The position numbers and the translations under genes are program-made. From Parcubacteria group bacterium GW2011_GWA2_40_23 (lineage in GTDB: Bacteria; Patescibacteriota; Patescibacteriia; UBA11705; JABHMO01), in assembly GCA_000996245.1 (NCBI GenBank), contig LBYP01000003.1:9509-73508 (forward strand): a stretch of 64,000 bases of DNA, given 5' to 3'. This document shows, in pieces, positions 3,099 to 33,173 of the stretch. Positions within the stretch are counted from its first letter, which is position 1. Every line of letters begins with the position of its first letter. Under the pieces are notes generated by a model, which was not told where the DNA came from, did no database searches, and worked only from the letters and a program-made list of their open reading frames with translations.

Positions 3099-3139
3099 AA
3101 ACAACCCACCCCTTTGACGAGGTGGGCCGATTGATGTCC

Positions 3140-13085: not shown

Positions 13086-13127
13086 GGGCTTGTAGGGGCT
13101 CAAGAGATTGAGCCCAGGCTAAAATAT

Positions 13128-16152: not shown

Positions 16153-16242
16153 GGAGGCGTGGCTGAGTGGTCGAAAGCACCGCATTCGAAACGCGGCAGA
16201 TCTTAACCGGTCTCAGGGGTTCAAATCCTCTCGCCTCCGCCA
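16153..16242 (+). tRNA. tRNA-Ser (anticodon CGA), long variable arm
   Basis: Acceptor GGAGGCG/CGCCUCC. Anticodon loop UUCGAAA. Long extra arm CAGAUCUUAACCGGUCUCA. T-arm GGGGUUCAAAUCCUC. Discriminator G followed by CCA. Confidence 0.85.
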
Positions 16243-16309
16243 TGAAGTACACACGGAGTGTGACTTCATGGTATACCATATTTGTTCAGATGTTTTGTAA
16301 AATAAATAC

Positions 16310-17248
16310 ATGAATACAAATCTTTTTAGAACAGAGGAAGAGCGAAAAGTCACTCTTACACCCAAAGAGCTGAAGAATATTCTTGGTGTTGATCCGCAGT
16401 TTGAATCTGTTTCCGAAGCGGTTTACTTTGATAACTACGATCTACCATGTCCAGTAAGGGTGAGCGTAACCACTAAAGACAAAAAAGTAGTAATGATAGT
16501 TCTTAGAAAGAATCGACACGGCGGTATAAAAAACGAAGTAAAAATCTTCCGCGCACTAAAAGAGTTTGGTCTTCCTGTCCCCGAAGTTCTAGTTGAACCT
16601 TTTAAAAATGAAGAAGGCGAGTATGTTGCTATTTTGTCGCTTTTACCAGGAGAAAATCTTCAGAAACTAGGAATGCGATCTGATGAAGGTTTAGCACAAG
16701 CAAAAGAATTGCTTGTGCAGGCCGTAATTACTCTTACCACCGCCACAGATTTTATTAGAAAACATGAAGTATCTAAGATTATTCCAAATATCTCATTAAT
16801 GAAAGAGTTGGCAGACGTAAATGTTGAAGAAAATTCGTGGTTTAAGGAAGAAGTTTTTCAGACCGCAGTCGAAAAACTAAAAAGTATTCTTGAGGATATT
16901 ACAACTCCGTTAGTACTTTCAAATGGAGATTATCAGCCAGGTAATTTTTTGGCAAAGGACGGAGAAATTACCGGTTTCCTCGATTTTGAATCGCTATCAT
17001 TTCAAGACCCGCTAATGGGTTTTGTAAAATATCCGATTTATGATTTACTTCCATTATCTCGAACAGATGTAGTTAAAATATTCTTAGATAAAAAAGGATT
17101 TTCTGAAAAAGACTTTAGTTGTCGCTTGGCTTTGGGATGTTTGAAAGTTCTCAAAAAAGAAATTCCTGTTTCGGGAGGTGATGAAGAAACTCAAGAGTAC
17201 AGAAATAGAACCCTGACCCTTCTGAAGAAAAGTTTGAACTCTCTATGA
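16310..17248 (+). CDS. phosphotransferase-family (APH/choline-kinase-like) protein kinase-fold enzyme
   Basis: Catalytic loop NGDYQPGNFL and a DFE(S) motif (GFLDFESL). 312 aa. Confidence 0.5.
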   Translation: MNTNLFRTEEERKVTLTPKELKNILGVDPQFESVSEAVYFDNYDLPCPVRVSVTTKDKKVVMIVLRKNRHGGIKNEVKIFRALKEFGLPVPEVLVEPFKNEEGEYVAILSLLPGENLQKLGMRSDEGLAQAKELLVQAVITLTTATDFIRKHEVSKIIPNISLMKELADVNVEENSWFKEEVFQTAVEKLKSILEDITTPLVLSNGDYQPGNFLAKDGEITGFLDFESLSFQDPLMGFVKYPIYDLLPLSRTDVVKIFLDKKGFSEKDFSCRLALGCLKVLKKEIPVSGGDEETQEYRNRTLTLLKKSLNSL

Positions 17249-17309
17249 GAAAGTCACAAATAGATTAAATGATGACGTGGTTAACCAGAATTAAAATTAA
17301 AGTTAATTT

Positions 17310-18512
17310 ATGAAACTCAACAGATTTTTACAAATTGGAATTTTTTGTGTCATTGTTGTGTTGGTAATAGGGGGAGTTTTTTATTTATCAACGAATAGCA
17401 CCTCTTCCTCAATCGCCGCTATCATCGAAAATTCGCCGATGAACTTTATTTTTAAAGAAAAGATACCGGAAATAACAAAAACTGAAGCAGTGATAGTTTC
17501 TGTTGGTGACATTTTCATGCATGACAATAATTTATTTGCAGCCTACAACAAAACCACCAAAAAATATAACTTTGATTCTGTTTTTTCAGCAACTAATAAT
17601 TATTTTAAAGATGCTGACGTCTCGACTACCTGGCTTGGTGCGGTTTATAGTCCAATAGGACCATATTTAGGCTACCCTTTATTTAAATCCCCGGTTGAGC
17701 TTATCGACACCTTACAAAACATTGAATTGGATGTGGCATTTAGAACCAATCACACCATGGACTTTGGTGTTAAGGGGTTGAATGAAACAACGCAAATTCT
17801 TAAAGATCACAATATCAACCAAGTGGCGGCGTATGATACAGAAGATTCCAGTAAAGAGATTTATGTTTATAAAAAAGATGATTTAAAAATTTCTTTCCTC
17901 GGATATATTTATGGTATGAACGGGTTGCCAATTAAAGAACCATGGATGATTAACTTGATCGATTTGGAAAAAATAAAAAATGATATTGCCAAAGCTAAAA
18001 CACAATCAGACTTTGTTGTCGTGGCTCTACATTTTGGTAACGAATATCAGAGGTTTCCTAGCGATTGGCAAAAAGAAACCGCTCAACAAATTGCTGACTT
18101 TGGTGCAGACATGATTATTGGTTCTCATCCGCACGTTATGCAACCAGCAGATGTAATAACCGCAAGCGATGGAAGAAAAGTTTTTGTGGCTTATGGGTTA
18201 GGGAACTTTTACTGTGGTCAAAGAGAACAATTTACAGATGCTGGTATGGTATTACGATATACAATTGAGAAAACAGAGGGGAAGACAAGTTTAAAAGATG
18301 TTGCTTATGTTCCAACCTGGGTGGCGCAGTACAAAGAAAATGGCCGAACGCAGTTTAAGGTTTTACCAAGTAAGGAATATATAAAATTATACGAAGAGAA
18401 AAAGGCAGATTTTCTTTCTGTGGCGAATTACAATCGTTTAAAGCAAACTTATCAGGAAACAGTAAAACATTTGGATAATCTCAGAATTGGTTTTGTGGAA
18501 TATCAGAAGTAA
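17310..18512 (+). CDS. CapA-family metallophosphoesterase (poly-gamma-glutamate capsule synthesis protein-like)
   Basis: N-terminal TM, then VGDIFMHD and GSHPHVMQP motifs. 400 aa. Confidence 0.6.
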   Translation: MKLNRFLQIGIFCVIVVLVIGGVFYLSTNSTSSSIAAIIENSPMNFIFKEKIPEITKTEAVIVSVGDIFMHDNNLFAAYNKTTKKYNFDSVFSATNNYFKDADVSTTWLGAVYSPIGPYLGYPLFKSPVELIDTLQNIELDVAFRTNHTMDFGVKGLNETTQILKDHNINQVAAYDTEDSSKEIYVYKKDDLKISFLGYIYGMNGLPIKEPWMINLIDLEKIKNDIAKAKTQSDFVVVALHFGNEYQRFPSDWQKETAQQIADFGADMIIGSHPHVMQPADVITASDGRKVFVAYGLGNFYCGQREQFTDAGMVLRYTIEKTEGKTSLKDVAYVPTWVAQYKENGRTQFKVLPSKEYIKLYEEKKADFLSVANYNRLKQTYQETVKHLDNLRIGFVEYQK

Positions 18513-18560: not shown

Positions 18561-18728
18561 AATGATGTATATGAAAAATATACAAAAAGAACTGGTGCTC
18601 TTTGAGCGCTTTTACATTCGTCGTTGTTATGATGAAAAGACGGAAACATGGTATTTTTCGGTTATTGATATTATCGCAGCTTTAATTGAGCAAGCTGATT
18701 TTAAGTGCGCACAGAGTTATTGAACAAC
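18561..18728 (+). pseudogene. truncated Bro-N/DinD-like fragment (55 aa), homologous to the N-terminus of ORF 55049-55876
   Basis: ELVLFERFYIRRCYDEKTETWYFSVIDIIAALIEQ aligns with LTIFEGKQIRRLWDEEKELWYFSVIDVISALTDS. It is not in the ORF track because it is under 60 aa. Confidence 0.5.
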
Positions 18729-18932
18729 ACTAAAAAGTCGTCTAAAGAAGGAAGGGAATCAGTCGGTCACAAAATGTGACCAACTGAAAATGTTATTTGG
18801 GTGAGAATTAAAAAATCACAGTCCATCATTTAATCATGTAAATCATAGTACCGAAAGAAGGGTTAAATATTGCCCTTGCCTCGCCAACCAGTAATTGATT
18901 CAATAAAAAGGTTAATTTGGAAATAATATATT

Positions 18933-20039
18933 ATGGCACACGAAAAAATAGATTTAACAAAAAAAGAGCCAGTTACGGTTGAGCCAGAAGAAGGCGAAGC
19001 ACAGGTTTGGGTTCAAGCGCAACCGCCCTGGGAAGATTTCGCTTCAGTCAATGTTGATGAAGACGCCAAAAGAAAAGAAGCCACACCAGAACAGGCTAAA
19101 GAAATGGACAAACGGATGGCGGAACTTGGCGTCGCTTTTGCAGGATCAAAATTAAATTGGCATTTGGATGGAGCTTTAAATATTTCATTATTAGCGGGAA
19201 AATATATTGGTTATCACAAAGACGTTGATGTGTCAGTCGAGCAAGGAGAGTTAGCACAACTTGAAGCTCAACTTTTTGACCATGGTTATGGTCTTTTTTT
19301 GTCTAGTACCAACGAAGAAACAGGTGAACGTCAATTACGCCGCGTGGGATTTAAAGTTTTTCAAGATTCTGAAAAAGAACATATGCTGATTGCAGCCATT
19401 GATGAACGCAGAAAGTTGCGCGAGGATAAGGCTTTGAATTTCGTAGATGTTCATGTGTTAGCTAGAAATGAGGCGGGGCTAGCCTTAGGTTGTTTGGATG
19501 TAGTAATCCCCGAAAAGTGGACCAAACCATATCCAGTTGAATTCAACGGCCAACAAATAAATTTATCGCATCCAGGGAAAGTACTTTATTATAAATTACA
19601 TCAAGACAGAAATTATGATGTGACTGACGTTGAGCGGCTTATTAAAACAGGAAATTTAATGGTTGAAGATGTTGATGATGTCGGCGAAGTTTATGAAAAA
19701 GAATTTAAGGCAAATTTAGCAAGAGCACGTAAACGTTTTGCCCCAATCTCAGCAGAAATAAAATCTGGCACAACAGCAGAACAAATTGCTCAATTATTTT
19801 TTAATGATGAAGAATTTTCTCGCGCCGGCGAAGCGACAAGGCCGGCTTTTGTGGAATTGGGCAAGCAACTTATTGCTTCTGGCGATACTTCTGTCGAGAA
19901 TATGATAAAAATTGCTGTGGGCATATTCAAAGCCGAGGAACAAAACGATCAAATACGGGAGAAGATTGCAAAAATTAGGAAAGATGTTGAGGTGCAGGCG
20001 GAGTTGAAAAATGTTCGAGAGCAAATGTCTAAATCATGA
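18933..20039 (+). CDS. Lnu/ANT(2'')-like nucleotidyltransferase-domain protein with N- and C-terminal extensions
   Basis: NWHLDGALNISLLAGKYIGYHKDVDVSV resembles the lincosamide nucleotidyltransferase motif YWLDGGWGVDVL..HRDIDID. 368 aa. Confidence 0.4.
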   Translation: MAHEKIDLTKKEPVTVEPEEGEAQVWVQAQPPWEDFASVNVDEDAKRKEATPEQAKEMDKRMAELGVAFAGSKLNWHLDGALNISLLAGKYIGYHKDVDVSVEQGELAQLEAQLFDHGYGLFLSSTNEETGERQLRRVGFKVFQDSEKEHMLIAAIDERRKLREDKALNFVDVHVLARNEAGLALGCLDVVIPEKWTKPYPVEFNGQQINLSHPGKVLYYKLHQDRNYDVTDVERLIKTGNLMVEDVDDVGEVYEKEFKANLARARKRFAPISAEIKSGTTAEQIAQLFFNDEEFSRAGEATRPAFVELGKQLIASGDTSVENMIKIAVGIFKAEEQNDQIREKIAKIRKDVEVQAELKNVREQMSKS

Positions 20040-20319
20040 TTTTTGTGATTATATGATTGCCATGATTAAGATAGGTTGTTGTATCGGAAAAAGTTTGAAA
20101 TCATAATTATCATAAAAATCATAGTTAATCATAGTAATGGTAGTGTGCTTGAGTGAAATCATGGTAATCACAAAAATCATAGTTAATCATAGTAATGGTA
20201 GTGTACTTGAGTGAAATCATGGTAATCACAAAAATCATAGTTAATCATAGTAATGGTAGTGTTCCTGAGTAAAATCATGGTAATCATTTAATCATGTAAT
20301 CATAGTAAGCGAAGCGCAC
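20040..20319. repeat. array 1 of the ~58-bp tandem repeat (AAATCATGGTAATCACAAAAATCATAGTTAATCATAGTAATGGT plus a 14-17-nt semi-variable GC-richer segment), ~4 units
   Basis: The direct repeats can be read directly in the sequence. Further arrays at 21373-21651, 21934-22036, 23521-23794 and 24329-24621. Confidence 0.9.
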
Positions 20320-20889
20320 ATGCTCAAACAAATTGATCTTAATCAAAACAAAGTCGATTATACTCTTAAAGTCAGTAAACGTTCACGTCGACTGCGACTC
20401 GCAGTATATTGTGATGGTCAACTTGTTGTTACTGCCCCCAGATTCATGAGTCTACATTACGTCGAAGCGTTTATTTTACAAAAAGCTCAGTGGATTTTGA
20501 GTCGAATAGACTATTTTAAGAAATTTCCAGGCAAAGCCTTGGGGCGTTTAACGAAAAAAGATTATTTTGAACACAAAGCACCGGCCTTGATGCTTGTCCA
20601 GACTCGAATAGCGCACTTCAATCAATTCTATAATGTTAAAATAAACAGGATCAGCATTAAAAATCAAAAAACACGTTGGGGTTCGTGTTCCAAAAAAGGT
20701 AATTTGAACTTTAATTATAAAATAGTCTTAATGCCAACAGAAATGGCGGATTATATTATTGTACATGAGCTCTGTCATCTGATAGAATTTAATCATTCAC
20801 GTAACTTCTGGGTTTTAGTCGCGAGGACTATACCAAGTCATTTGAAAATACGTAGGGAATTAAGAAAAGGGAACTTTAAAATTATTTAG
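20320..20889 (+). CDS. YgjP-like metal-dependent hydrolase (DUF45/WLM-like, HExxH)
   Basis: WGSCS, then HELCHLIEFNHS. 189 aa. Confidence 0.65.
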   Translation: MLKQIDLNQNKVDYTLKVSKRSRRLRLAVYCDGQLVVTAPRFMSLHYVEAFILQKAQWILSRIDYFKKFPGKALGRLTKKDYFEHKAPALMLVQTRIAHFNQFYNVKINRISIKNQKTRWGSCSKKGNLNFNYKIVLMPTEMADYIIVHELCHLIEFNHSRNFWVLVARTIPSHLKIRRELRKGNFKII

Positions 20890-20958
20890 CATCGGGAAAA
20901 CTCGTCTAGATTATGCTTTTCATAATTATTTGATTACCATGATTAGGAAGAGAAAATC

Positions 20959-21372
20959 ATGATAAACGAAAAATATCCCGAGAGCGAATTAACTGAAAAA
21001 ATAATAGGTTGTACCATGGAGGTGCACAAGTATTTTGGTAATGGTTTTCAGGAAGTTATTTACCAAAGAGCATTGGCTATTGAAATGAGATCTCGGGGGC
21101 TGGTCTTTAGTCGCGAACATGAAATGGATATTTATTACAAAGGTACGCATATTGGAACAAGACGTGTCGATTTCTTTGTAGAAGATAAAATAATGGTTGA
21201 GTTGAAAGCCGTAATTACGCTAGAAGATGTTCATCTCGCACAAGCGCTAAATTATTTAGAAGCGTATAATATGGAAATAGGACTGTTGATAAATTTTGGA
21301 TCAAAAAGTTTAACATTTAGAAGGTTGATGAAGAAGAAACGAAAAATTAATCCATCGGAAAAACTCGTCTAA
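20959..21372 (+). CDS. GxxExxY-family protein (PD-(D/E)XK nuclease superfamily)
   Basis: GNGFQEVIYQRAL and EL...D core motifs. 137 aa. The C-terminal codons (PSEKLV) are encoded by the conserved repeat-boundary motif. Confidence 0.65.
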   Translation: MINEKYPESELTEKIIGCTMEVHKYFGNGFQEVIYQRALAIEMRSRGLVFSREHEMDIYYKGTHIGTRRVDFFVEDKIMVELKAVITLEDVHLAQALNYLEAYNMEIGLLINFGSKSLTFRRLMKKKRKINPSEKLV

Positions 21373-21651
21373 ATCATGATTTTTGTGATTATATGATTAC
21401 CATGATTACAACAAGCAGCTTTGTTGTGAAATCACAGTCATCATAAGAATCATAGTTAATCATAGTAATGGTGCTGTCCTCGAGCTAAATCATAGTAATC
21501 ACACAAATCATAGTTAATCATAGTAATGGTGGTGAGGTGCTCGAGCGAAATCATGGTAATCATCTAAATCATAGTTAATCATAGTAATGGTAGTTGGGTG
21601 AATAAATTAAAATCATAGTTATCATTTAATTATAGTAATCATAGACAAAGT
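21373..21651. repeat. array 2 of the ~58-bp AATCATAGT tandem repeat (~4 units)
   Basis: Direct reading of the sequence. Confidence 0.9.
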
Positions 21652-21933
21652 ATGGAAAACACAAATGTGAATCAACCGGTAGTCGAGAAAAAATCGTCGC
21701 ATAAAGTTCTTTGGGGTGTGTTGTGCTTAATTGTTCCTTTCTTGTTGTTTGTTCTGACCTTAAGTGCCTACGCTATTGTTGCCTTTATATCTCAGCAATC
21801 TGCCGTTGAGCCTACTGATACGATACAAAAGGTACAAATGGGTTTAGGTATTTTTGGCATGGTAGACTTTCTTGCTTTCATCGTAGGCATTCCTGTGGGC
21901 ATTGTTTTGTTAGTGAAGAGTAAGAAATCTTAG
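21652..21933 (+). CDS. small membrane protein (2 TM helices)
   Basis: 93 aa, two hydrophobic helices, flanked by repeat arrays. Confidence 0.4.
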   Translation: MENTNVNQPVVEKKSSHKVLWGVLCLIVPFLLFVLTLSAYAIVAFISQQSAVEPTDTIQKVQMGLGIFGMVDFLAFIVGIPVGIVLLVKSKKS

Positions 21934-22036
21934 TTTATAATTTAATCATGGTAATCATATAAATCATGTTAATCATAGTAATGGTGTTTGAGCGAAAATC
22001 ATAGTAATCACATAAATCATAGTTAATCATAGCTTT
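21934..22036. repeat. array 3 of the AATCATAGT tandem repeat (~1.5 units)
   Basis: Direct reading of the sequence. Confidence 0.85.
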
Positions 22037-22666
22037 ATGACGGTTTGGGATAACATCTACAAAAATTATCAAAAAGGCGGCGACGCTTGGGCAACTCTTT
22101 CGGAAGAAATTCACCCTCTATTTAAAGAATTTTTGGAGAAAGAGAATTTTGATCTTAAAAGTATTTTTGATATTGGCTGTGGAACCGGTAAATATTTAGA
22201 ATTTTTAAAAGCTTATGGTTTTAAAACAGATGGAATTGATTCGAGTGAAACAGCAGTTGAAATGACAAAAGAAAAGCTTAGTTCCGATTCTGTTGTCACT
22301 TGTACTAACATGTTTGAGTTTGCTATCCCGCAAAATAAATATGATTTAGTTATTTCTATTGCTACAATTCATCACGGGACCAAGAAACAAGTTCAGGGTT
22401 TGATCAATAAAGTTTATGCGGTATTAGTCGAAAGTGGTAAAATCTTTATGACCTTGCCCGATATTGAAAGCACCAAGAAATGGAATACCTTTAAAGATCA
22501 TAAAGAAGTCGCGCCAGGAACCTTTGAACCACTGGCTGGTCCGGAACAGGGTTTGCCACACAGTTTTTATGCCAAAGAAGAAATTGAAGAATTGTTTTCA
22601 CGATTTACAAATGTGCAGATAGATTTGGATGATAGAGGGCGGTGGATTATAAGAGGAATAAAATAA
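22037..22666 (+). CDS. class I SAM-dependent methyltransferase
   Basis: Motif I DIGCGTGKYLEFL. 209 aa. Confidence 0.65.
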   Translation: MTVWDNIYKNYQKGGDAWATLSEEIHPLFKEFLEKENFDLKSIFDIGCGTGKYLEFLKAYGFKTDGIDSSETAVEMTKEKLSSDSVVTCTNMFEFAIPQNKYDLVISIATIHHGTKKQVQGLINKVYAVLVESGKIFMTLPDIESTKKWNTFKDHKEVAPGTFEPLAGPEQGLPHSFYAKEEIEELFSRFTNVQIDLDDRGRWIIRGIK

Positions 22667-23520
22667 CAAATATGAGTCAATTTGATTTTCCACCACAAGA
22701 AAAGCCTCTAGGTGAGTCAGGTGCGACAATTAGTGTAGAAATTCTTGAGCAGATTAAAGAAGATTTGCGTGATTTATTTCGTAGTGCCGATGATCCAACT
22801 GCTATATTATTACAAACTATGGAATCTGAAGAATTTAAAGCAGTAGTCCCATCCGAACTGATTAATGATGTGAGAGAGAGACTACAAGCACTTACCTTTG
22901 AGAATGAAGATGATTTCGTAACTAAAGTAATTAGTGTTATAACGCCGGTATTAAAAATAACAAAACGAGGGAAAACGGATATTATTAAACAAGTTGGAAG
23001 AGAAATGTTTACACCGGCTGATATAGAAGCAACAAGTGCTATTATTAAAGAAAGCGGTGCAAAAAAAATTTATGTCGTGGGGAACACTGGGTCTGGCAAA
23101 ACAACCTTTGCGAGGGAACTTTCTCGAGAAGTTGCTTACAAAAACATAGACATAGATCAGTGGTTTCAAATTTTTCGCCAAGAACAAAAACACGAAGCGA
23201 CAGGTTTGAAGGAACTTGTAGCTTATATTCTTGAAAAAGAGAAGCCGCCTTTTATTATTAACCATGCCGATTTATTAAGACAAGATTTAATTGAAGATGC
23301 TGATTTAGTAGTTTTTCTTAATCCTAAAAAAGAAGAACAATTGAAAAGTCATCAACTGCGAACTGAAAGTGGTGCCGAGGGAGAATGGAAAAATGTCAGC
23401 ACCGATGATTACGAGCTAATTGCGGCACAAAATATTGCTAAATTAGAACTTTTAGGAGGAGAAATTAAATATCAGAATGAAAAATCTGGGACTTCTGTTC
23501 TTGTGATAGGATCCAATTAG
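22642..23520 (+). CDS. P-loop NTPase (kinase/AAA-like) with an N-terminal extension
   Basis: Walker A VVGNTGSGKTTFARELS. Overlaps the upstream methyltransferase by 25 nt. Confidence 0.5.
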   Translation: MDYKRNKITNMSQFDFPPQEKPLGESGATISVEILEQIKEDLRDLFRSADDPTAILLQTMESEEFKAVVPSELINDVRERLQALTFENEDDFVTKVISVITPVLKITKRGKTDIIKQVGREMFTPADIEATSAIIKESGAKKIYVVGNTGSGKTTFARELSREVAYKNIDIDQWFQIFRQEQKHEATGLKELVAYILEKEKPPFIINHADLLRQDLIEDADLVVFLNPKKEEQLKSHQLRTESGAEGEWKNVSTDDYELIAAQNIAKLELLGGEIKYQNEKSGTSVLVIGSN

Positions 23521-23794
23521 GTTTTATCTTTTTCTAAGGAATATGACCAAATAAATTTTTGTGCTATTTCTGAAGAAGTTTTTCATGATTAAAAAATCAT
23601 AGCCCATCAAATAATCATAGTAATGGTGCTTGAGCGAAATCATAGTCCATCATTTAATCATAGTTAATCATAGTAATGGTGGCTGTGTGTTCGAGCGAAA
23701 TCATAGTAATCACACAAATCATAGTTAATCATAGTAATAGTGCTGTCCTCGATCTAAATCATAGTCATCACATAAATCATAGTTAATCATAGTA
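23521..23794. repeat. array 4 of the AATCATAGT tandem repeat (~4 units)
   Basis: Direct reading of the sequence. Confidence 0.9.
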
Positions 23795-24328
23795 ATGGTC
23801 ACAATCACAAAAGCTCACCCAGGCGCCGAAAAGCAGATTTCTGCTTTAGCCGATGATTATTGTCTAAAAGATAAAACAGAAAAAATCAGTAATTCTGGTT
23901 TTATTGTTTTTCCTAAACCGCCAGCCAAGTTTTTGAAGCGGATTAATCATTGTCAGTATTTTTATGTGGCTAAAGAAGGGCACAAGTTAGTGGGATATTT
24001 ATTGGCTTATACATTGAAAGAAATGGAAGATCTGAATGAAAACTTTTCTTATTTTGATGATCTCAAAAATGCGAGCGAAGGCAAGGATATAGTTTTTTTA
24101 GATCAAATAGTAGTTAGTCGAGAGTATACTGGTCGTGGTCTTGGACAAAACTTATTAGATCATTTACTAAGCAACTTGAAGGATAAACATGTTTTTGGAT
24201 TTATACTTCATGCACCAACTAGAAATCAAAGATCGATAAATTTTTTTCAATCAAAAAACAACTGGCAGTTAATTAAAGAAGTAAGTATCGAAGGCATGCT
24301 CTGTGGGCTTTACGGTTTCAAATATTAG
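23795..24328 (+). CDS. GNAT-family N-acetyltransferase
   Basis: VVSREYTGRGLGQNLLDHLL (acetyl-CoA binding motif). The ATG lies inside the last repeat unit (TAATGGTCAC). Confidence 0.55.
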   Translation: MVTITKAHPGAEKQISALADDYCLKDKTEKISNSGFIVFPKPPAKFLKRINHCQYFYVAKEGHKLVGYLLAYTLKEMEDLNENFSYFDDLKNASEGKDIVFLDQIVVSREYTGRGLGQNLLDHLLSNLKDKHVFGFILHAPTRNQRSINFFQSKNNWQLIKEVSIEGMLCGLYGFKY

Positions 24329-24621
24329 TTGATAGAAAATCATGGTAATCATTTAATCATAGTTAATCATAGTAATGGTGGCGTTCCTGAGCTAAATCAT
24401 GGCAATCATTAAATCATAGTTAATCATAGTAAGGGTGCTGTTCCCGAGCTAAATCATAGTCATCACAGAAATCATAGTTAATCATAGTAATGGTGCTGTT
24501 CTCGAGCTAAATCATGGCAATCATTAAATCATAGTTAATTATGGTAATGGTGATGTGTCTGAGCTAAATCATGGTAATCACACAAATCATAGTTAATCAT
24601 AGTCCCGATAGTTAAGTTTTT
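24329..24621. repeat. array 5 of the AATCATAGT tandem repeat (~5 units)
   Basis: Direct reading of the sequence. Confidence 0.9.
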
Positions 24622-25131
24622 ATGAACATACTTTTATTAATCATTTTTATCTTCGCCATCACCTTCGCCTACGCTGGCATTCGTGGCGCACCTTGGGCAC
24701 CAACGAAAAAAAATGATGTACCGCGATTCTTAGAATTAGCTGATATCAAGGGTGGCGAAAAGGTTTATGATTTAGGTTGCGGTGACGGTCGTTTGCTTTT
24801 CGCAGCAGCAGAAAAAGGCGCGGAGGTCATTGGCTATGAGATTTCTTTGTTGCCTTATTTGATTGCGAAGATTAAGCAGTTTTCATTTGTGAAAAAAGAG
24901 CATACTCGGATATTTTTTAAAGATTTTTGGCATGTTAATTTAGCTGAGGCTGATCTTGTTTATTTTTTTCTTATGCCCAAAATTTATGACAAACTTAAAG
25001 CTAAGTTTGAAAAAGAATTAAAACCAGGTAGTCGCGTTATTGCTTATGTTTGGCCGATTGAGGGTTGGACACCGATTAAGGTTAGTACTCTCGAAAATGC
25101 ACAAAAGATTTATCTTTATAAAATAAAATAA
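24622..25131 (+). CDS. membrane-anchored small methyltransferase-like protein
   Basis: N-terminal TM helix, then YDLGCGDGRLL. 169 aa. Paralogous to ORF 26344-26904. Confidence 0.5.
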   Translation: MNILLLIIFIFAITFAYAGIRGAPWAPTKKNDVPRFLELADIKGGEKVYDLGCGDGRLLFAAAEKGAEVIGYEISLLPYLIAKIKQFSFVKKEHTRIFFKDFWHVNLAEADLVYFFLMPKIYDKLKAKFEKELKPGSRVIAYVWPIEGWTPIKVSTLENAQKIYLYKIK

Positions 25132-25153
25132 AATAAAATAATTAATTGACCAA

Positions 25154-26347
25154 ATGGAAAAAGGAAATAAATATTGTCATGATTGTGGCCAACCAAAAGT
25201 TGAACACATTAATACCTGGATGGAAGAATTGCTAGGTCGTGTTTTGCCATCATTAAAATTACCAAAAAAGTTGGAAGAAATTTCTGATATTATTATTGAA
25301 AAGATTTTTACTCTTTCGAAATTGGCGAGGTTTACAACTGATTTTACTTCGGCAGACATTCAACTCCGCTCATCTTGTTTTATGGCTGAAATGAGGCCAC
25401 GCGGCGCAGTTTTTTATGCTACTAAAACTTCTTATGGCTTTACTAATTATTTTAAAATGGAAGTTGCAGATAAAATTTTTAGGTTCGAGACATTACCCCT
25501 AGCAAAGTTCGAAAGTAAATACCCCGCGAAGCTTGTGGATGACAAAGAATTAGCCAAACGTCACTGCCAAAACGGAGGTTTTCCCATAGCCGAAGGACGG
25601 GTTTTTTGGTTTTGGCAGAAAAAGAAGGCCATGGAATTTGCTCGTCAAGTCGGTTTCCCTTTGGTTGTTAAACCGCGCAGTGGCTCTGTCAGTCGTCACG
25701 TCACAACCAATATACAAAATGACGAGCAGCTAGAAAAAGCTATTCGTCATAGCATCAGTTATTCTCCATCTTTTATTATTGAAAGATTTATGGCTGATAC
25801 TTCAGTGTATAGAGCCACAGTAATTGATTTTGATTTTGTGGCCTGTATTAAACAGGTGCCCGCAAATATTGTCGGCGATGGGATATCGACTATACGTGAA
25901 CTCATCAATCAAAAGAATAATGATTCACGTAGGGGTGACCCAAAACAAAAGCAATTAACGCTTTATAAATTGGTGGAAAATGAAACGACCCAAAAGTTAT
26001 TAGATGAAAAAATGTATGACGATGGTACTATTTTAGCAAAGGACGAGAGTTTCTTTCTACAAAACAATCCATTTTTGAAACTTGGTGGTGATCTTGTTGA
26101 AGTTACGCCTATTGTTCATCCGGACAATCTGCAATTATTTAGAGACTTGGCGCGTCATTTTGATATTCGTTTAACAGGGATAGACTTTTTGGTGAATGAT
26201 ATTTCAGTCTCCTGGAAAGATCAACCTTGCGCAATTCTAGAATTAAACAGTGCACCTTGCATTGAGTTACATCATTATCCATCTTCTGGGGAGCCGACCA
26301 ACCCGGCTGGCGCCTTGGCAGATATGTTTTTTAAATATTACCTATGA
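25154..26347 (+). CDS. ATP-grasp ligase (cyanophycin-synthetase-N-domain/RimK-like) with an N-terminal CxxC region
   Basis: GFPLVVKPRSGSVSRHV and ILELNSAPCIELHHYPSSGEPTNPAGALADMF. 397 aa. Confidence 0.55.
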   Translation: MEKGNKYCHDCGQPKVEHINTWMEELLGRVLPSLKLPKKLEEISDIIIEKIFTLSKLARFTTDFTSADIQLRSSCFMAEMRPRGAVFYATKTSYGFTNYFKMEVADKIFRFETLPLAKFESKYPAKLVDDKELAKRHCQNGGFPIAEGRVFWFWQKKKAMEFARQVGFPLVVKPRSGSVSRHVTTNIQNDEQLEKAIRHSISYSPSFIIERFMADTSVYRATVIDFDFVACIKQVPANIVGDGISTIRELINQKNNDSRRGDPKQKQLTLYKLVENETTQKLLDEKMYDDGTILAKDESFFLQNNPFLKLGGDLVEVTPIVHPDNLQLFRDLARHFDIRLTGIDFLVNDISVSWKDQPCAILELNSAPCIELHHYPSSGEPTNPAGALADMFFKYYL

Positions 26348-26904
26348 TAAGTTTATTTTTTTCAGTTTTTTTGGCAGCCATTATTGTTATTCTGTTCATC
26401 TTTTGGTTGATTTTTATGGTCGATTCTGTTACTCGCGGACATGACTTACCAACGGGACGAAATCAAAGAAAAGAAATCTTTAAAATTATTTCAGAACAGA
26501 AGACAGCTCAAACTTTTTATGATTTAGGTTGTGCACACGGGGCATTGGCTGTGCGGATAAAAGGGAAATTTCCAGCTTTGTCAGTTTATGCCATTGATAT
26601 GGGCTCAGTACGTATCTTCTTTGCTAAAATCAGGGCGTTTGTTTTAAGAAAAAAAGTAAATTTTATTTGTGCTGACATTTTCAATGTTGACTTAAGCCAA
26701 GCTGATATTGTCTACACCTACCTTTGGTATGATATTATGCCAGCCTTAGAAAAAAAGCTTCAAAAAGAATTAAAACCTGGTGCGATTGTCGTTACGAATA
26801 CTTCAAGTTTTCTGAATTGGAAACCAATAAAAGAAATAGCCCCACCGGACAAAGCTTCGCAAAAAGTAAATATTGAAACTTTGTTTGTCTATCGAAAAGA
26901 ATAA
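26344..26904 (+). CDS. membrane-anchored small methyltransferase-like protein (paralog of 24622-25131)
   Basis: N-terminal TM, YDLGCAHGAL, shared LKPG and DIVY motifs. ATGA overlap with the ATP-grasp gene. Confidence 0.5.
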   Translation: MISLFFSVFLAAIIVILFIFWLIFMVDSVTRGHDLPTGRNQRKEIFKIISEQKTAQTFYDLGCAHGALAVRIKGKFPALSVYAIDMGSVRIFFAKIRAFVLRKKVNFICADIFNVDLSQADIVYTYLWYDIMPALEKKLQKELKPGAIVVTNTSSFLNWKPIKEIAPPDKASQKVNIETLFVYRKE

Positions 26905-26905
26905 A

Positions 26906-26946
26906 AAAACCCCGCTAACAGTGTCGACCGAAAGCGGGTTTTTTAT
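26906..26946 (+). terminator. rho-independent terminator closing the accessory block
   Basis: AAAAACCCCGC...GCGGG hairpin followed by TTTTTTAT. Confidence 0.6.
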
Positions 26947-27016: not shown

Positions 27017-27838
27017 CTATTCCAGCGGTCCGAAGCTGAGATCTTCGCCGCAGTAGGGACAGTTCTTGACCGCACCGGGCAGGCAGGCGAGCTTCGTCTG
27101 TTTTGCCCTCGGACCGGAGATGTCGATCCAGATGAGCGGTTCACCTTCGGGCGACCAGACGATCCTGTCGACCAGCCTGGTGAATCTGGGGAAGCCGCCT
27201 TGCTTCGGGGTGAGGCTGGCTTGGGCTTCGAGCGCCCGCATGTTTTTGCAGCGATGCAGGTAGCTGCCATCGGGATGGAGGGTCCAGACCGCGTTGTGCA
27301 GTTCCCACTCTTTTTGGAGCAGTTCGATGTACGCCCCGTGATCGAAGCCCAGGTGCGTAGGTACTTCGAACAAGGGGATGAACATGGGATTGACTTGAAG
27401 TGTGTTCAGCCATTTTAGCTCGGGCTTGGTTTCCAGGTCGAGGCGCAGGACCATCGAAAGCCGCCGCTTGTCTGTGCGCTTATCGCGATACAGATCCGAG
27501 TGGAAGTACTGCTTGGCCCAGAGCTTGGGGTCTATCTCGAGACCGAAAGTTGCGGCCAGACGCGTGGCTGTCTGGTTGATGTCATGGTCGCAGAGGCTTT
27601 CTTCGACAGCTGGTTTGCTGACAAAGCTGCGACGCTGACTGACTAAATTCCCGGTTGCGAACTCGGTCGTAGGCAGACAGTGCAAGTGCATCGGCAGGTT
27701 CACCAGGGACTCGAATTTGGGCAGAACGAGCAGGATCTCTGGGGTCTTGGTCCGGAACTTGCGGGTTACCATGATGGACAGGTCTAGCACCAGTGGTGTG
27801 AGTCTTGCTTTCTTGCTTGTCATGATGGGCTCCTTCAT
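27017..27838 (-). CDS. hypothetical protein with a C-terminal CPYC zinc ribbon, in a high-GC island (~55% GC)
   Basis: 273 aa, GC3-rich codons, ends ...CLPGAVKNCPYCGEDLSFGPLE. Confidence 0.45.
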   Translation of the reverse strand: MKEPIMTSKKARLTPLVLDLSIMVTRKFRTKTPEILLVLPKFESLVNLPMHLHCLPTTEFATGNLVSQRRSFVSKPAVEESLCDHDINQTATRLAATFGLEIDPKLWAKQYFHSDLYRDKRTDKRRLSMVLRLDLETKPELKWLNTLQVNPMFIPLFEVPTHLGFDHGAYIELLQKEWELHNAVWTLHPDGSYLHRCKNMRALEAQASLTPKQGGFPRFTRLVDRIVWSPEGEPLIWIDISGPRAKQTKLACLPGAVKNCPYCGEDLSFGPLE

Positions 27839-28429
27839 GCCCAGTTGGACATTTCAATTTAGCAAATTATTGCTGTTCCGTCAACTCCATCCGATTTGCT
27901 CCATCCGATTTGCGAGCCTGCCTGCCGGCAGGCAGGGAGCACCTTTGTTAAGAAAGCGACGTTTACCCTGCACCTAAAGGGCACACTTTATGGTACAGGG
28001 CGGCAATCTCTTAATCAATCCCAAGGAAGCAATCTCCGACATCTTGATGATCGTTAGTTAGTAGGGGCTCAAGATATTGAGCCCCTGGATCTAAATTATC
28101 TTTGCCGTTTACCCCGAATCCAAAGGTCATTGCGAACCCAGCTCTGGGCAGGGGTGAAGCAATCTACCAATTCTCAATGATTTTGTTCTGCTAGAGAACA
28201 AAAGCTTTTTATCGCTGTTATTTATGATTGTTTCATTTTCTTGTTCCTCATAATGCGGTAAATGAAAATGTCATAGGGGTTCAAGACATTGAGCCCTCAT
28301 GGAGTTTTGGTCAAAAATACATTTTTCTGGTATAATTTTGTTTGTAGAAGAGTTTGTAGGGGTTCAAGATATTGAACCCTGCCACAAACAACATTTCAAT
28401 ATTTTTATTAAAAATTATTTTTAAAATTT

Positions 28430-31011: not shown

Positions 31012-31440
31012 ATGCAGAAAACGATTATTGTTGTTGTCCTGAGTCTCTGTGTTTTTTCTTTAGCTACACCGGTTTTTGCTTTCCCCACTTTAGTGCCAGT
31101 TGAATGCTCTGGAGATGCTTTGCTTGATAATCCCTCAACGGCAGAAAAAGAATGTGAACAATGTGACTTGGGAAAAGAATCAGGTCCACAATGTTGTTGT
31201 AATCTTAGCTCTGTTGAACGTATTGCAGTTAATGTCATGCAAATTATTTTGGGCATTGCTGGTTCATTAGCCTTGCTAACATTCGTTGTGGGCGGGGTTT
31301 TGTATATGACCTCTGGCGGTGAACCGGCTAAGGTCAGTAAGGCTACAACAATGTTGAAAACCGCAGTTATTGGTATTGCCATTATTCTTTTATCTGGAAT
31401 TATAATTCAAACACTACTCCGAAAATTAACTGGTACATAA
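31012..31440 (+). CDS. T4SS pilin-like protein (TrbC/VirB2-like, PF18895-like), copy 1. Cys-rich variable region.
   Basis: Signal peptide, variable region (CSGD...CEQC...QCCCN), TM hairpin with the conserved (Y/W)MT(S/A)GG(D/E)P.K loop. Confidence 0.5.
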   Translation: MQKTIIVVVLSLCVFSLATPVFAFPTLVPVECSGDALLDNPSTAEKECEQCDLGKESGPQCCCNLSSVERIAVNVMQIILGIAGSLALLTFVVGGVLYMTSGGEPAKVSKATTMLKTAVIGIAIILLSGIIIQTLLRKLTGT

Positions 31441-31443
31441 AAT

Positions 31444-31833
31444 ATGAAGAAACTTTTTGTTATTTTTGCACTGATATTTTTATTTTGTTCTTTGGCTACT
31501 GTTGTTTTTGCTGGTGAAAAAGCGGCTATAGATGCGGCTATAGACAAAATAGATGTTGGTTTTGGTTCCGGTATTGTCACGGCCAAAGGGGGCGATCCCA
31601 GCACGGTAACTCAAGAATTAATTGGTAATGCCATCAAAATTCTCCTGGGGATAATGGGTTCTGTTGCTTTGTGCATTTTCATTTACGGTGGTATAATATG
31701 GATGACAGCCGGAGGCACACCGGAGAATATTACTAATGCGCAAAACACAATGATTTGGGCAGCAATAGGTCTATTTGCTATTTTTGCTAGCTACATGATT
31801 ATCAATTTCTTAATAGGTTCACTGACGTTTTAA
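31444..31833 (+). CDS. T4SS pilin-like protein, copy 2
   Basis: Same architecture: IWMTAGGTPENI loop between two hydrophobic helices. Confidence 0.5.
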   Translation: MKKLFVIFALIFLFCSLATVVFAGEKAAIDAAIDKIDVGFGSGIVTAKGGDPSTVTQELIGNAIKILLGIMGSVALCIFIYGGIIWMTAGGTPENITNAQNTMIWAAIGLFAIFASYMIINFLIGSLTF

Positions 31834-31870
31834 CAAGTTTAAATAAAAATTAATAATTAACTTTAAGCAC

Positions 31871-32296
31871 ATGCTAAACGTACAAAAAGTTAAAAACATT
31901 GCTCGCCTAGGTGTTTTTGCTTTGGCTATTTTGACTCTCGTTGTGCCAGTAATTCTTCCGTTTGTTACAGCATCAGCTGCAGTTGAGGATTTCGGACTAT
32001 CAGATGTAAGCACTAGCGCTGGTTTGAAGAATGCTGACCTTAAAGCAACTATTGGTAAATTACTCAAGGTTGCTCTAGGCTTCTTGGGTATTATTGCTGT
32101 CATCATTGTTTTAGTTGGTGGTTTTAAGTACATGACAGCTGGTGGTGCAGAAGAAAAAGTTGGTGATGCTAAGAAGTGGATTGTTTCTGGTATCATTGGT
32201 TTAGCGATCGTTTTGAGCGCCTACGCCATTACTTCTTTCGCACTTACACAATTTACAAAAGCATTAACTGATGCTGGCGCACCTAAGGTTGAGTAA
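31871..32296 (+). CDS. T4SS pilin-like protein, copy 3
   Basis: KYMTAGGAEEKV loop. Same family. Confidence 0.5.
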   Translation: MLNVQKVKNIARLGVFALAILTLVVPVILPFVTASAAVEDFGLSDVSTSAGLKNADLKATIGKLLKVALGFLGIIAVIIVLVGGFKYMTAGGAEEKVGDAKKWIVSGIIGLAIVLSAYAITSFALTQFTKALTDAGAPKVE

Positions 32297-32364
32297 TTTT
32301 TTAGTTTGTCCCTCGCCTTTAGCGAGGGACATGACACGAGTTAATTAATAAATTTAATTGATTC

Positions 32365-32769
32365 GTGTCATGTATGAAAAAGACCATTTATTTAAGTATA
32401 ATTTTTATTGCTATATTGACTTTGTTTGCTGCACAAGCAGTTTTTGCAGGTGACCCGCCAGCAGCAGCAAGTACTTTACGCAAAAGTCTCGACACAGCTG
32501 CGACCGAGCCAGGGCTTATTCCAACTAGCGGAGTTACAGACATTCCAAGTATGGTTGGTAAAATAGTGAGTGTGGCCTTGCAATTTGTTTCACTGTTATT
32601 TTTGATAATAATTGTTTACGCTGGTATTCGTTGGATGACGGCCAATGGTGACCCCGGAAAGGTAAAAGAAGCGCGCAGTTGGATGATCCATGCGGCCATA
32701 GGTCTACTTATAACCCTCATGTCTTATCAGGTAGTGGCTTATATAATCGACAAGATTGTAATTCAATAG
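32365..32769 (+). CDS. T4SS pilin-like protein, copy 4
   Basis: RWMTANGDPGKV loop. Confidence 0.5.
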   Translation: MSCMKKTIYLSIIFIAILTLFAAQAVFAGDPPAAASTLRKSLDTAATEPGLIPTSGVTDIPSMVGKIVSVALQFVSLLFLIIIVYAGIRWMTANGDPGKVKEARSWMIHAAIGLLITLMSYQVVAYIIDKIVIQ

Positions 32770-32788
32770 TGTTAGCCGTATAAAAAGT

Positions 32789-33169: not shown

Positions 33170-33173
33170 TGAT

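What the first reader, a model, noticed from the sequence alone, without database searches (positions are those of the whole stretch)
20040..26946. Cassette-like accessory gene array punctuated by a ~58-bp AATCATAGT tandem repeat
Nine small genes of unrelated function lie head-to-tail. They are: YgjP-like hydrolase, GxxExxY nuclease, a tiny membrane protein, a SAM methyltransferase, a P-loop NTPase, a GNAT, a TM-anchored methyltransferase, an ATP-grasp ligase and a second TM-anchored methyltransferase. Five intergenic spacers are filled entirely by 1.5-5 tandem copies of a 58-bp unit. Each unit has a conserved 44-nt core (AAATCATGGTAATCACAAAAATCATAGTTAATCATAGTAATGGT, itself built from AATCATRGTWAATCA sub-repeats) and a 14-17-nt semi-variable segment centred on CTCGAGC/CTGAGC. 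There is also a sixth, shorter degenerate spacer copy at 20890-20958. The block ends with a clean terminator. The arrangement looks like a gene-cassette array with recombination or regulatory sites between the cassettes. I do not recognise the repeat and no recombinase is visible in the window.
Basis: seen in the sequence. Interest (0 to 1): 0.8.

Follow-up and report, generated by a model that had tools for sequence, protein, structure and literature searches.

The report
Nuclease-linked repeat arms between accessory genes
The 58-bp repeats between these small genes are multiplied end-pieces of a widespread, apparently undescribed inverted-repeat element built around the unstudied "GxxExxY" nuclease gene, and in related bacteria the gene content changes exactly at these repeats.

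Summary
Twenty same-strand and three inverted copies of a ~40-bp arm all lie in window 18813-24609, and none lie elsewhere in the 64 kb. Each arm is four AATCATRGT sub-repeats spaced 9-10 bp apart. Five spacers carry 1.6-4.6 tandem units.

The repeat is not private to this genome (Parcubacteria GW2011_GWC2_39_14). The same arms, as left and right inverted ends, flank GxxExxY (PF13366/TIGR04256, PD-(D/E)XK) nuclease genes in Parcubacteria, Bacteroidota, a cyanobacterium, a spirochaete and unassigned metagenome contigs (one at 23% GC). Three loci show a clean end-gene-end unit of about 460 bp. Gene-less end-to-end palindromes also occur.

In four related Parcubacteria the gene order differs at the repeat junctions: the nuclease sits at two different positions or is absent, and a P-loop gene is swapped for an S51 peptidase. 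One more distant relative has neither repeats nor nuclease.

No integrase and no attC core motifs are present, so this is not an integron.

Best reading: a REPIN/RAYT-like or MITE-like mobile system that uses a PD-(D/E)XK nuclease, with arms that serve as binding and recombination sites. The mechanism is inferred, not shown.

The parts
18813..18877 (+). Single right-end arm (RE) with a CCGAAAGAAGGGTTAAAT tail, upstream of the nucleotidyltransferase-like gene. It lies in a 400-bp stretch that is absent from relative L009.
   Evidence: nhmmer arm profile E=1.5e-10; sequence; L009 comparison
18933..20039 (+). Aminoglycoside-2''-nucleotidyltransferase-like gene. Its last four codons and stop codon are encoded by the start of the left-end arm.
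   Evidence: Pfam PF10706 E=2.2e-6; sequence
20029..20067 (-). Left-end arm (LE), inverted orientation: GTCTAAATCATGATTTTTGTGATTATATGATTGCCATGATTA
   Evidence: nhmmer E=1.6e-5 on the minus strand; weak hairpin with the first RE (z -1.9)
20096..20308 (+). RE tandem array S1, 3.7 units of 58 bp. The last unit abuts the YgjP-like ATG.
   Evidence: TRF; nhmmer; unit list
20320..20889 (+). YgjP-like (M48/DUF45) metallopeptidase gene
   Evidence: PF01863 E=2.5e-42
20890..20958 (-). It begins with CATCGGGAAAACTCGTCTA, which also ends the nuclease ORF.
   Evidence: nhmmer 20944-20904 minus strand, E=1.7e-4; sequence
20959..21372 (+). GxxExxY / PDDEXK_3 nuclease gene, the candidate enzyme of the element. 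The D71...E81-x-K83 motif is intact.
   Evidence: PF13366 E=1.6e-38; TIGR04256 E=5.4e-41; invariant residues across 40 homologues
21375..21407 (-). LE overlapping the 3' end of the nuclease gene
   Evidence: nhmmer E=1.3e-6; hairpin with the following RE, -14.9 kcal/mol, z -2.85
21428..21644 (+). RE tandem array S3, about 3.6 units. The last unit abuts the ATG of the 93-aa membrane protein.
21652..21933 (+). 93-aa membrane protein gene
   Evidence: ORF; orthologues in L009, L021 and L038
21937..22032 (+). RE array S4, about 1.6 units
22037..22666 (+). SAM methyltransferase gene
   Evidence: PF13649 and related families
22672..23520 (+). P-loop NTPase gene with no repeat upstream. L009 and L021 carry an S51 peptidase gene at the corresponding position.
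23594..23799 (+). RE tandem array S5, about 3.3 units. The GNAT ATG (23795) lies inside the last unit.
23795..24328 (+). GNAT acetyltransferase gene
   Evidence: PF00583 E=4.6e-12
24337..24609 (+). RE tandem array S6, 4.6 units, with a 115-bp two-unit higher-order period
24622..26904 (+). Three further genes (TM-anchored methyltransferase, cyanophycin-synthetase-like ATP-grasp ligase, TM-anchored methyltransferase) that are not separated by repeats
26905..26945 (.). Hairpin terminator flanked by an A-tract and a T-tract, ending the block
   Evidence: RNA fold -16 kcal/mol, z -3.5

Best explanation
The 58-bp units are tandemly multiplied right-end arms of a family of small inverted-repeat elements.

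Anatomy. The complete form of the element is left arm - GxxExxY nuclease gene - right arm, about 460 bp. Each arm carries three or four (A)AATCA-type sub-repeats spaced 9-10 bp apart, so they sit on one face of the helix. The arms end in GTCTGAAC...GTTCAGAC-like termini. Gene-less left-plus-right palindromes and solo arms also exist.

This window. A nuclease gene with an intact active site sits inside the array (20959-21372), and arms occupy six or seven consecutive gene junctions.

Proposed mechanism (inferred). The PD-(D/E)XK nuclease binds the sub-repeat arrays and nicks or cuts at the arms. Repair of those breaks then draws on other arm copies, on replication slippage, or on DNA taken up from relatives. 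That would move the nuclease gene, multiply arms in tandem, and delete, insert or swap the genes lying between arms. The result would be a cassette-like array without an integrase.

Shown: the anatomy, the cross-phylum linkage to the nuclease gene, the insertion and content polymorphism, and copy-number variation.
Inferred: binding, cleavage and the repair route.
For: 1. Linkage of arms and nuclease gene. Every GxxExxY locus I read has such arms within about 300 bp of the gene:
- window, L007, L015 (23% GC), L021 and L038 (Parcubacteria);
- L025 (Paludibacter), L026 (Microcystaceae), L029, L031, L034 (Bacteroidota), L046;
- L042-45, L040 (Persicobacter, variant AATCC) and L041 (Treponema, variant GGATTCG).

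2. Clean inverted ends enclose the ORF: L046 31 nt at 81% complementarity, L034 27 nt at 81%, L041 16 nt at 88%.

3. Gene-less copies exist. There is a solo palindrome at L031 13955-14041 and four full palindromes (plus a lone left arm) in L007. They fold well: z -9.4 (L007), -6.4 (L025), -4.0 (L026), -3.4 (L031).

4. The sub-repeat sequence changes with protein divergence: AATCAT at 70% identity or more, AATCC at 65%, GGATTCG at 47%.

5. The proteins are 75-85% identical across phyla. D71, E81 and K83 are invariant. The published family note says 'unknown... multiple transfers' (PMC3424549).

6. Polymorphism among relatives. The nuclease module lies before the membrane-protein gene in the window, after it in L038 and L021, and is absent in L009, where only ATAC separates the two flanking genes. 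A P-loop gene is swapped for an S51 peptidase. The methyltransferase and GNAT genes are present or absent. L035, which has no nuclease gene, has no arms.

7. Arm multiplication is general and varies between samples of one organism (L042-45, L029, L021).

8. In the window, unit variants are shared between spacers (S3a/S5c/S6c at 89-91%), and units are also duplicated locally (S1 at 87-94%).
Against: - No 130-aa PD-(D/E)XK protein is known to move DNA on its own, and no biochemistry exists for this family.
- I saw no target-site duplications at the three clean insertions.
- No exact empty-versus-filled pair was obtained outside the Parcubacteria set.
- Single arms are retained at orthologous junctions between genomes only about 80% identical (window vs L009). 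Start and stop codons of host genes are embedded in them. That fits long-lived, possibly domesticated sequences better than active parasites.
- L035 shows that gene content in this neighbourhood also differs without any repeats.
- The sample of loci is small and was partly selected by the repeat itself (L007, L015).
- The structure model of the protein was poor (pLDDT 47).
Confidence: 0.55

Rival explanations
1. Passive intergenic repeats of the REP/BOX kind. The arms would be host-tolerated or host-used sequences: RNA stem-loops, mRNA processing or stability signals, or translation-initiation contexts. Slippage multiplies them. Ordinary RecA recombination between direct copies deletes or swaps the genes between them. 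The GxxExxY gene is only a frequent neighbour, for example because the arms are its own regulatory flanks.
For: - Single arms are conserved at orthologous junctions in L009 and the window despite about 80% nucleotide identity, and they overlap start and stop codons.
- Left-plus-right palindromes fold significantly.
- The gene orders seen in relatives can largely be derived by deletions between direct repeats.
- BOX elements show the same end-module plus variable tandem-module architecture and length variation (PMC3049150).
Against: - Three of the five arrays in the window have no inverted partner, so no hairpin can form.
- In L007 the flanked genes carry their own promoter-like and terminator-like sequences next to the palindromes, and minus-strand genes are flanked too.
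- The same arms occur in phyla with very different promoter types.
- The position of the nuclease gene differs between relatives, which needs an insertion and not only deletions.
- There is no Rfam match.
Confidence: 0.27
2. An integron-like site-specific cassette system. The repeats would be attC-like recombination sites, served by a tyrosine or serine recombinase encoded outside the window.
For: Genes are co-oriented, small and functionally unrelated, and are separated by imperfect palindromes of attC-like size in L007 (about 125 bp). Gene content varies at the sites. The termini GTCTAAAC/GTTTAGAC differ by one base from the canonical GTCTAAC/GTTAGAC boxes; this comparison rests on my own knowledge of attC.
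Against: - No recombinase of any kind is present in 64 kb.
- No RYYYAAC or paired GTTRRRY motif occurs in any spacer.
- Stems are continuous, without the bulged-base architecture of attC.
- Most arrays are direct repeats only.
- The same elements sit singly inside type I restriction operons of genomes with no sign of an integron.
- The gene lies between the two arms in L034, L041 and L046.
Confidence: 0.05
3. Operator or iteron arrays for a host DNA-binding protein (transcription factor, partition protein or replication initiator) that controls this accessory operon.
For: The sub-repeats are spaced 9-10 bp apart on one helical face, in tandem, directly upstream of start codons, and all are oriented with the genes.
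Against: - The repeats are restricted to this block in the window, yet they occur across phyla specifically next to GxxExxY genes.
- Inverted-end geometry encloses an ORF.
- Consensus scanning finds promoter-like hexamers only on the strand antisense to the genes.
- The region is chromosomal, about 12 kb from dnaA, and not a plasmid origin.
Confidence: 0.08
4. Assembly artefact or chance low-complexity sequence.
For: Short-read assemblies can mis-size tandem arrays, so the copy numbers may be imprecise.
Against: - The sequence is identical in three independent assemblies made with two assemblers.
- The motif count is 50 against 1.3 expected.
- The same arms are present in unrelated public contigs.
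Confidence: 0.01

Closest known systems
REP/REPIN elements and their RAYT transposases (PMC3116915, PMC3337134)
   Same: A short palindromic intergenic element is built from two inverted arms. A small enzyme gene is itself flanked by its cognate repeats. Gene-less derivatives are more numerous than the gene. The repeat sequence co-varies with the enzyme lineage.
   Different: The enzyme here is a PD-(D/E)XK nuclease (PF13366), not an HUH/Y1 IS200-like transposase. The arms are arrays of 9-10-bp sub-repeats rather than a single hairpin. The proteins are 75-85% identical across phyla, which suggests horizontal spread, whereas RAYTs are mainly vertically inherited. In this 64 kb the copies are clustered in 6 kb, not dispersed.
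Pneumococcal BOX elements, boxA-(boxB)n-boxC (PMC3049150)
   Same: The modular intergenic repeat has inverted end modules and a variable number of tandem internal modules. Length varies between strains. Start codons are occasionally supplied by the repeat.
   Different: There is no sequence relationship. BOX has no linked enzyme gene. Here it is the multiplied module that carries the sub-repeats and the element terminus.
Insertion sequences and their MITE derivatives
   Same: Terminal inverted repeats enclose a single ORF that fills the element. Short gene-less derivatives have the same ends.
   Different: No DDE, HUH or serine/tyrosine transposase is present. No target-site duplication was seen. 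The ORF is only about 130 aa.
Free-standing and intron-borne homing endonuclease genes, including the PD-(D/E)XK enzyme I-Ssp6803I (from my own knowledge)
   Same: A very small nuclease gene occupies the middle of a conserved sequence that also exists uninterrupted (left-plus-right palindromes). It spreads horizontally. No duplication occurs on insertion.
   Different: No intron or intein context is present. The flanks are repeated arms rather than a unique host gene. Arrangements with whole palindromes on both sides of the gene (L025, L026, L031) are not what simple homing predicts.
Integron cassette arrays with attC sites, such as Vibrio VCR arrays
   Same: Co-oriented small accessory genes are separated by conserved imperfect palindromes, and content is variable between relatives.
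   Different: There is no IntI, no attC core motifs and no folded-site architecture. Most sites here are direct repeats.
Rpn/YhgA-like (PDDEXK_2, Transposase_31) recombination-promoting nucleases (from my own knowledge)
   Same: These are PD-(D/E)XK proteins linked to mobile-element ancestry that stimulate recombination.
   Different: They belong to a different Pfam family and are larger proteins. No cognate flanking repeat arms have been described for them.

Membership tests
Integron (attC cassette array) | Integron integrase (IntI, tyrosine recombinase) adjacent to the array | tested here: not met
   No recombinase family hit in any of the 30 ORFs scanned with Pfam. The remaining ORFs were recognised by eye as housekeeping genes. 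Only 64 kb is visible.
Integron (attC cassette array) | attC core sites R'' RYYYAAC and R' GTTRRRY bracketing each site | tested here: not met
   No RYYYAAC in any of the six spacers and only two isolated GTTRRRY matches. No bracketed pair lies inside a spacer.
Integron (attC cassette array) | Each site folds as an imperfect hairpin from one strand | tested here: not met
   Inverted arms exist at only three places. Arrays S4, S5 and S6 are direct repeats only. The two foldable sites are weak (z -1.9 and -2.9).
Integron (attC cassette array) | Co-oriented, mostly promoterless cassettes with variable content between relatives | tested here: met
   All nine genes are on the + strand. Content differs in L009, L021 and L038.
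REPIN/RAYT system | Associated enzyme is an IS200-like HUH/Y1 transposase flanked by the repeats | tested here: not met
   The flanked gene is PF13366/TIGR04256, a PD-(D/E)XK nuclease.
REPIN/RAYT system | Two inverted repeat arms separated by a short spacer, located between genes | tested here: met
   L007, L025, L026 and L031 palindromes; window 20029-20141 and 21375-21471.
REPIN/RAYT system | Tens to hundreds of copies dispersed round the genome | tested here: inconclusive
   All 23 arms in the 64 kb lie within 6 kb. The rest of the genome was not available.
Insertion sequence / MITE | Terminal inverted repeats bounding the element | tested here: met
   L046 31 nt, L034 27 nt, L041 16 nt.
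Insertion sequence / MITE | Recognised transposase (DDE, HUH, serine or tyrosine) | tested here: not met
   The only ORF is the 130-aa PD-(D/E)XK protein.
Insertion sequence / MITE | Target-site duplication | tested here: not met
   No direct repeat at the outer edges of L034, L041 or L046, read by eye. The 19-bp repeat flanking the window's gene is part of the left arm itself.
Insertion sequence / MITE | Same element at different sites in related genomes | tested here: met
   The nuclease module lies before the membrane-protein gene in the window, after it in L021 and L038, and is absent in L009.
GxxExxY protein family (TIGR04256 / PF13366), for ORF 20959-21372 | Profile match above the curated cut-off and an intact D...ExK motif | tested here: met
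   139.6 bits against a cut-off of 35; 132.1 bits against 22. D71, E81 and K83 are invariant in 40 homologues.
Homing endonuclease gene | The enzyme cleaves the uninterrupted (gene-less) version of its own insertion site | not testable with these tools
   Needs biochemistry. Gene-less palindromes do exist.
CRISPR array | Identical repeats separated by unique spacers of about 30 nt, with cas genes nearby | tested here: not met
   The 'spacers' are 14-17 nt and semi-conserved. No cas gene was found.

The most novel reading that the evidence does not exclude
GxxExxY proteins form a family of more than 16,000 clusters at 50% identity with no assigned function. On this reading they are the mobility nucleases of a previously unrecognised class of prokaryotic mobile element. 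The element is bounded by sub-repeat-bearing inverted ends and spreads across phyla. It seeds gene-less palindromes and tandem arm arrays, and it can turn a run of accessory genes into an integrase-free, cassette-like shuffling array, as in this Parcubacteria genome.
Probability: 0.35. Interest if true: 0.85.

Novelty: new variant of a known kind. Interest (0 to 1): 0.7.

Why it matters
If correct, this gives a testable function to a very large 'function unknown' nuclease family (16,214 clusters at 50% identity at E<=1e-3). Genome annotations already name this family everywhere, and members often sit inside type I restriction operons.

It would also add a non-DDE, non-HUH enzyme class to the short list of enzymes linked to intergenic repeat families. 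And it offers a route by which reduced-genome CPR bacteria, which largely lack classical mobile-element machinery, could exchange accessory genes.

Even under the conservative rival, the repeats are a useful marker of a variable accessory-gene region in Parcubacteria.

Tried and rejected
- Rfam, at gathering and E-value thresholds: no family matches the repeats.
- Sigma-70 consensus scan: the units carry only weak promoter-like hexamers, and on the strand antisense to the genes. I did not adopt the promoter-array idea.
- attC motif scan: negative.
- Genome, metagenome and viral collections scanned with AATCATRGTWAATCATRGTAAT. There were 2 genome hits, 15 metagenome hits and 0 viral hits. The Ga0126342 hits (L003, L013, L017) are 10-bp satellites in another kind of DNA, and I set them aside as unrelated.
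- Homologue search with the GNAT protein returned only the query's own cluster, so that search was wasted.
- Sequence search against PDB: no relative of the nuclease.
- PADLOC defence library: no hit.
- Phage collection: no homologue.
- Plasmid collection: only two homologues.
- AlphaFold model from 40 close homologues: pLDDT 47. It is unusable for fold search, and I ran none.
- Literature: 'GxxExxY', 'PF13366' and 'PDDEXK_3' appear in only five papers, none about flanking repeats. Searching for the repeat as text found only primers. Searches on nuclease plus inverted repeats and on integrons in CPR found nothing relevant.
- The idea that the elements are always co-oriented with their neighbours held for the first nine loci but failed at L046, where the element is opposite to both neighbours.
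- The 19-bp direct repeat around the window's nuclease gene looked like a target duplication. It is part of the left arm, also seen in L021, L029 and L038.

Full report
**1.

AATCATRGT occurs 50 times in the window against 1.29 expected, and 47 of these lie in 20117-24603. The 25-nt core occurs 13 times against 0 expected. Tandem Repeats Finder reports the following arrays:

| Array | Coordinates | Period | Copies |
|---|---|---|---|
| S1 | 20096-20308 | 58 | 3.7 |
| S3 | 21428-21644 | 61 | 2.8-3.6 |
| S4 | 21937-22032 | not called at unit length | about 1.6 units |
| S5 | 23612-23799 | 58 | 3.3 |
| S6 | 24337-24603 | 57 | 4.6 |

The GNAT start codon lies inside a unit, and the terminator at 26905-26945 folds well.

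The window is Parcubacteria group bacterium GW2011_GWC2_39_14. The arrays are base-for-base identical in three independent assemblies. Unit counts from short reads should still be treated as provisional.

**2.

Each unit is four sub-repeats of AATCA(T/C)RGT spaced 9-10 bp apart, followed by a tail AATGGT-N8-14-CTCGAGC. A profile built from such arms finds 20 same-strand and 3 inverted copies, all within 18813-24609 and none elsewhere in 64 kb.

They sit at the left edge of spacers, overlapping the stop codon of the upstream gene.
- An extra same-strand arm lies at 18813-18877.
- The last three genes of the block, and the methyltransferase/P-loop junction, have no repeats.
- Units of S1 are most similar to each other (87-94%), but S3a, S5c and S6c are each other's best matches across spacers (89-91%). 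The arrays therefore grew both by local duplication and by exchange between spacers.

**3. The repeat is not private to this genome**

Scanning public contigs with the core gave a handful of real relatives.

- In L007 the motif forms about 125-bp imperfect palindromes, TGAACTATGATTAAG...CTTAATCATAGTTCA. These separate small genes, which include a homologue of the window's GxxExxY gene and GC-rich minus-strand genes with their own terminator.
- L015, a 23%-GC contig, has the same arms next to a 70%-identical GxxExxY gene.

A homologue search showed that GxxExxY proteins are 75-85% identical in Parcubacteria, Microcystaceae, Paludibacter and other Bacteroidota. D71, E81 and K83 are invariant.

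I then read the DNA round 12 further loci, and all have arms of the same construction next to the gene.

| Arrangement | Loci |
|---|---|
| Palindrome - gene - palindrome | L025 (between hsdS and hsdR), L026 (between hsdS and hsdM), L031 |
| Three tandem left arms plus one right arm | L029 |
| Clean left arm - gene - right arm, about 460 bp | L034 (between hsdR and hsdM), L046, L041 (Treponema) |

The tool-called inverted repeats for the three clean units are 27, 31 and 16 nt.

The sub-repeat changes with protein distance: AATCAT at 70% identity or more, AATCC in Persicobacter at 65%, and GGATTCG in Treponema at 47%. Gene-less palindromes occur as well (L031 13955-14041 and L007) and fold significantly, with z from -3.4 to -9.4.

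Tandem multiplication of arms is general, and copy number differs between samples of one organism (L042-45). The family is large: 16,214 clusters at 50% identity.

It has no solved structure detectable by sequence. It has no entry in the defence-system library and is absent from the phage collection. It has essentially no literature; the one classification paper lists it as 'unknown... multiple transfers'.

**4. Gene content does change at the repeats**

| Genome | Gene order |
|---|---|
| Window | NTase / YgjP / GxxExxY / TM93 / MT209 / P-loop / GNAT / TM-MT / ATP-grasp / MT / (minus-strand 273-aa gene) |
| L038 (YgjP 82% identical) | NTase / palindrome / YgjP / TM / GxxExxY / two right arms / GNAT |
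| L009 (about 80% nucleotide identity) | NTase / YgjP / TM / MT209 / S51 peptidase / GNAT / TM-MT |
| L021 | YgjP / TM / GxxExxY / S51 / TM-MT / ATP-grasp / (minus-strand gene) / GalU |
| L035 (YgjP 70% identical) | Compact operon; no arms and no GxxExxY gene |

- In L009 only single arms sit at the junctions, there is no GxxExxY gene, and just ATAC lies between YgjP and the TM gene.
- The nuclease module therefore occupies two different junctions or is absent.
- One gene is replaced outright (P-loop by S51 peptidase), and others are present or absent.
- The last unit of each window array corresponds to the single arm seen at the same junction in L009. The extra tandem copies are therefore recent.

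However, L035 shows that this neighbourhood can also differ without repeats.

**5. What it is not**

- No recombinase or transposase family is detectable in the window.
- No attC core motifs occur in any spacer.
- Three of the five arrays cannot form a hairpin at all.
- No Rfam family matches.
- The consensus scan finds promoter-like hexamers in the units only on the strand antisense to the genes.

**6. Most likely mechanism**

The facts are:

- inverted ends made of phased sub-repeats that enclose a small nuclease ORF;
- gene-less derivatives;
- co-variation of sub-repeat and protein;
- cross-phylum near-identity of the protein;
- insertion polymorphism.

These are what one sees for a mobile element together with its non-autonomous derivatives. 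The closest functional analogy is the REPIN/RAYT system (PMC3116915, PMC3337134). The tandem-module behaviour resembles pneumococcal BOX elements (PMC3049150).

I infer that the nuclease binds the sub-repeat arrays and breaks DNA at the arms. Break repair, slippage and recombination between arm copies would then move the gene, multiply arms and shuffle the genes between them.

None of the enzymology is shown. No target duplication was seen, and the persistence of single arms at orthologous junctions argues that some arms are old and perhaps domesticated. I put 0.55 on this account. I put 0.27 on the conservative rival, in which the arms are passive REP/BOX-like repeats, ordinary recombination does the shuffling, and the nuclease is only a neighbour. 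The remainder goes to integron-like, operator and artefact readings.

**7. Verdict**

The finding is more interesting than a private repeat. It ties a CPR accessory-gene array to a widespread, undescribed association between the GxxExxY nuclease family and sub-repeat-bearing inverted ends. I rate it a new variant of a known kind (an enzyme-linked intergenic repeat family), with interest 0.7.

Noticed in passing
window 13095-13115, 13413-13433, 28064-28084, 28276-28296, 28359-28379: A second, unrelated repeat family: 21-bp GC-rich hairpins GGGGYTCAAGANATTGARCCC, often preceded by GTAG. There are five sites (7 strand matches against 0 expected), all in intergenic DNA. Three of them lie between the GC-rich minus-strand gene and the 87-aa gene just right of the array.
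   Followed up: partly
window 27017-27838 (minus strand): A 273-aa ORF at 57% GC in a 35-38% GC genome, with no Pfam, NCBIfam or PADLOC hit. It lies directly after the array's terminator. It is conserved in relative L021 at 81.6% nucleotide identity, higher than the flanking genes (74-79%). Similar GC-rich islands lie at about 9.0-10.9 kb, 41.4-41.9 kb, 47.2-47.8 kb and 52.2-52.6 kb.
   Followed up: partly
window 18562-18723 and 55049-55876: A 53-aa fragment resembling the N-terminus of the full-length Bro-N domain protein at 55049-55876 (PF02498). It sits in the 400-bp stretch just left of the array that is missing from L009. It looks like a gene remnant.
   Followed up: partly
window 16153-16242 and 16243-17473: A tRNA-Ser gene lies 2.6 kb left of the first arm. 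The stretch just after it, holding the 312-aa gene at 16310-17248 (APH, PF01636, per the precomputed annotation of the identical locus L018), has no counterpart in L009, which carries about 1.4 kb of other DNA there. The variable region may therefore start at the tRNA.
   Followed up: partly
L042-L045 (about 2880-3270): In one organism sampled several times, the spacer after a GxxExxY gene inside a type I restriction operon (hsdM / pemK-mazE / GxxExxY / hsdS) holds three different tandem repeats of 30, 31 and 13 bp. Copy numbers differ between samples, which shifts the called start of hsdS.
   Followed up: partly
L031 9831-9906 and 10492-10566: Sixty-six bp of the 3' end of the upstream peptidase gene, plus the start of the left arm, are duplicated after the second palindrome. 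This gives gene-end / palindrome / GxxExxY / palindrome / gene-end copy / palindrome. It is unexplained and may be a footprint of how the module was inserted.
   Followed up: partly
L002 about 200-400 (minus strand): Two right arms sit in tandem with different sub-repeats (AATCCTG and AATCATAG) but the same TTCAGACAA terminus. This suggests sub-families that differ in the sub-repeat and share the end.
   Followed up: no
L025, L026, L034, L042; also L029, L031, L041: Four of the GxxExxY loci read lie inside type I restriction-modification operons, and three others lie within a few kb of Fic-domain genes. In the window the neighbour is a YgjP/DUF45 peptidase, a family that from my own knowledge often accompanies type I systems.
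   Followed up: no
window 2403-3098: An S51 peptidase gene (PF03575) lies 17 kb left of the array. In L009 and L021 an S51 peptidase gene is one of the array genes. I did not test whether these are the same gene relocated.
   Followed up: no
window 4897-7677 and 31012-34063: dnaN and dnaA lie at 4.9-7.7 kb, and the GC skew changes sign near 6 kb, so the array is about 12 kb from the probable replication origin on the leading strand. A run of seven small paralogous T4SS-pilin-like genes follows at 31-34 kb.
   Followed up: no
search result: Some GxxExxY family members are about 260-aa proteins with two matched stretches, that is, tandem-fused duplicates.
   Followed up: no
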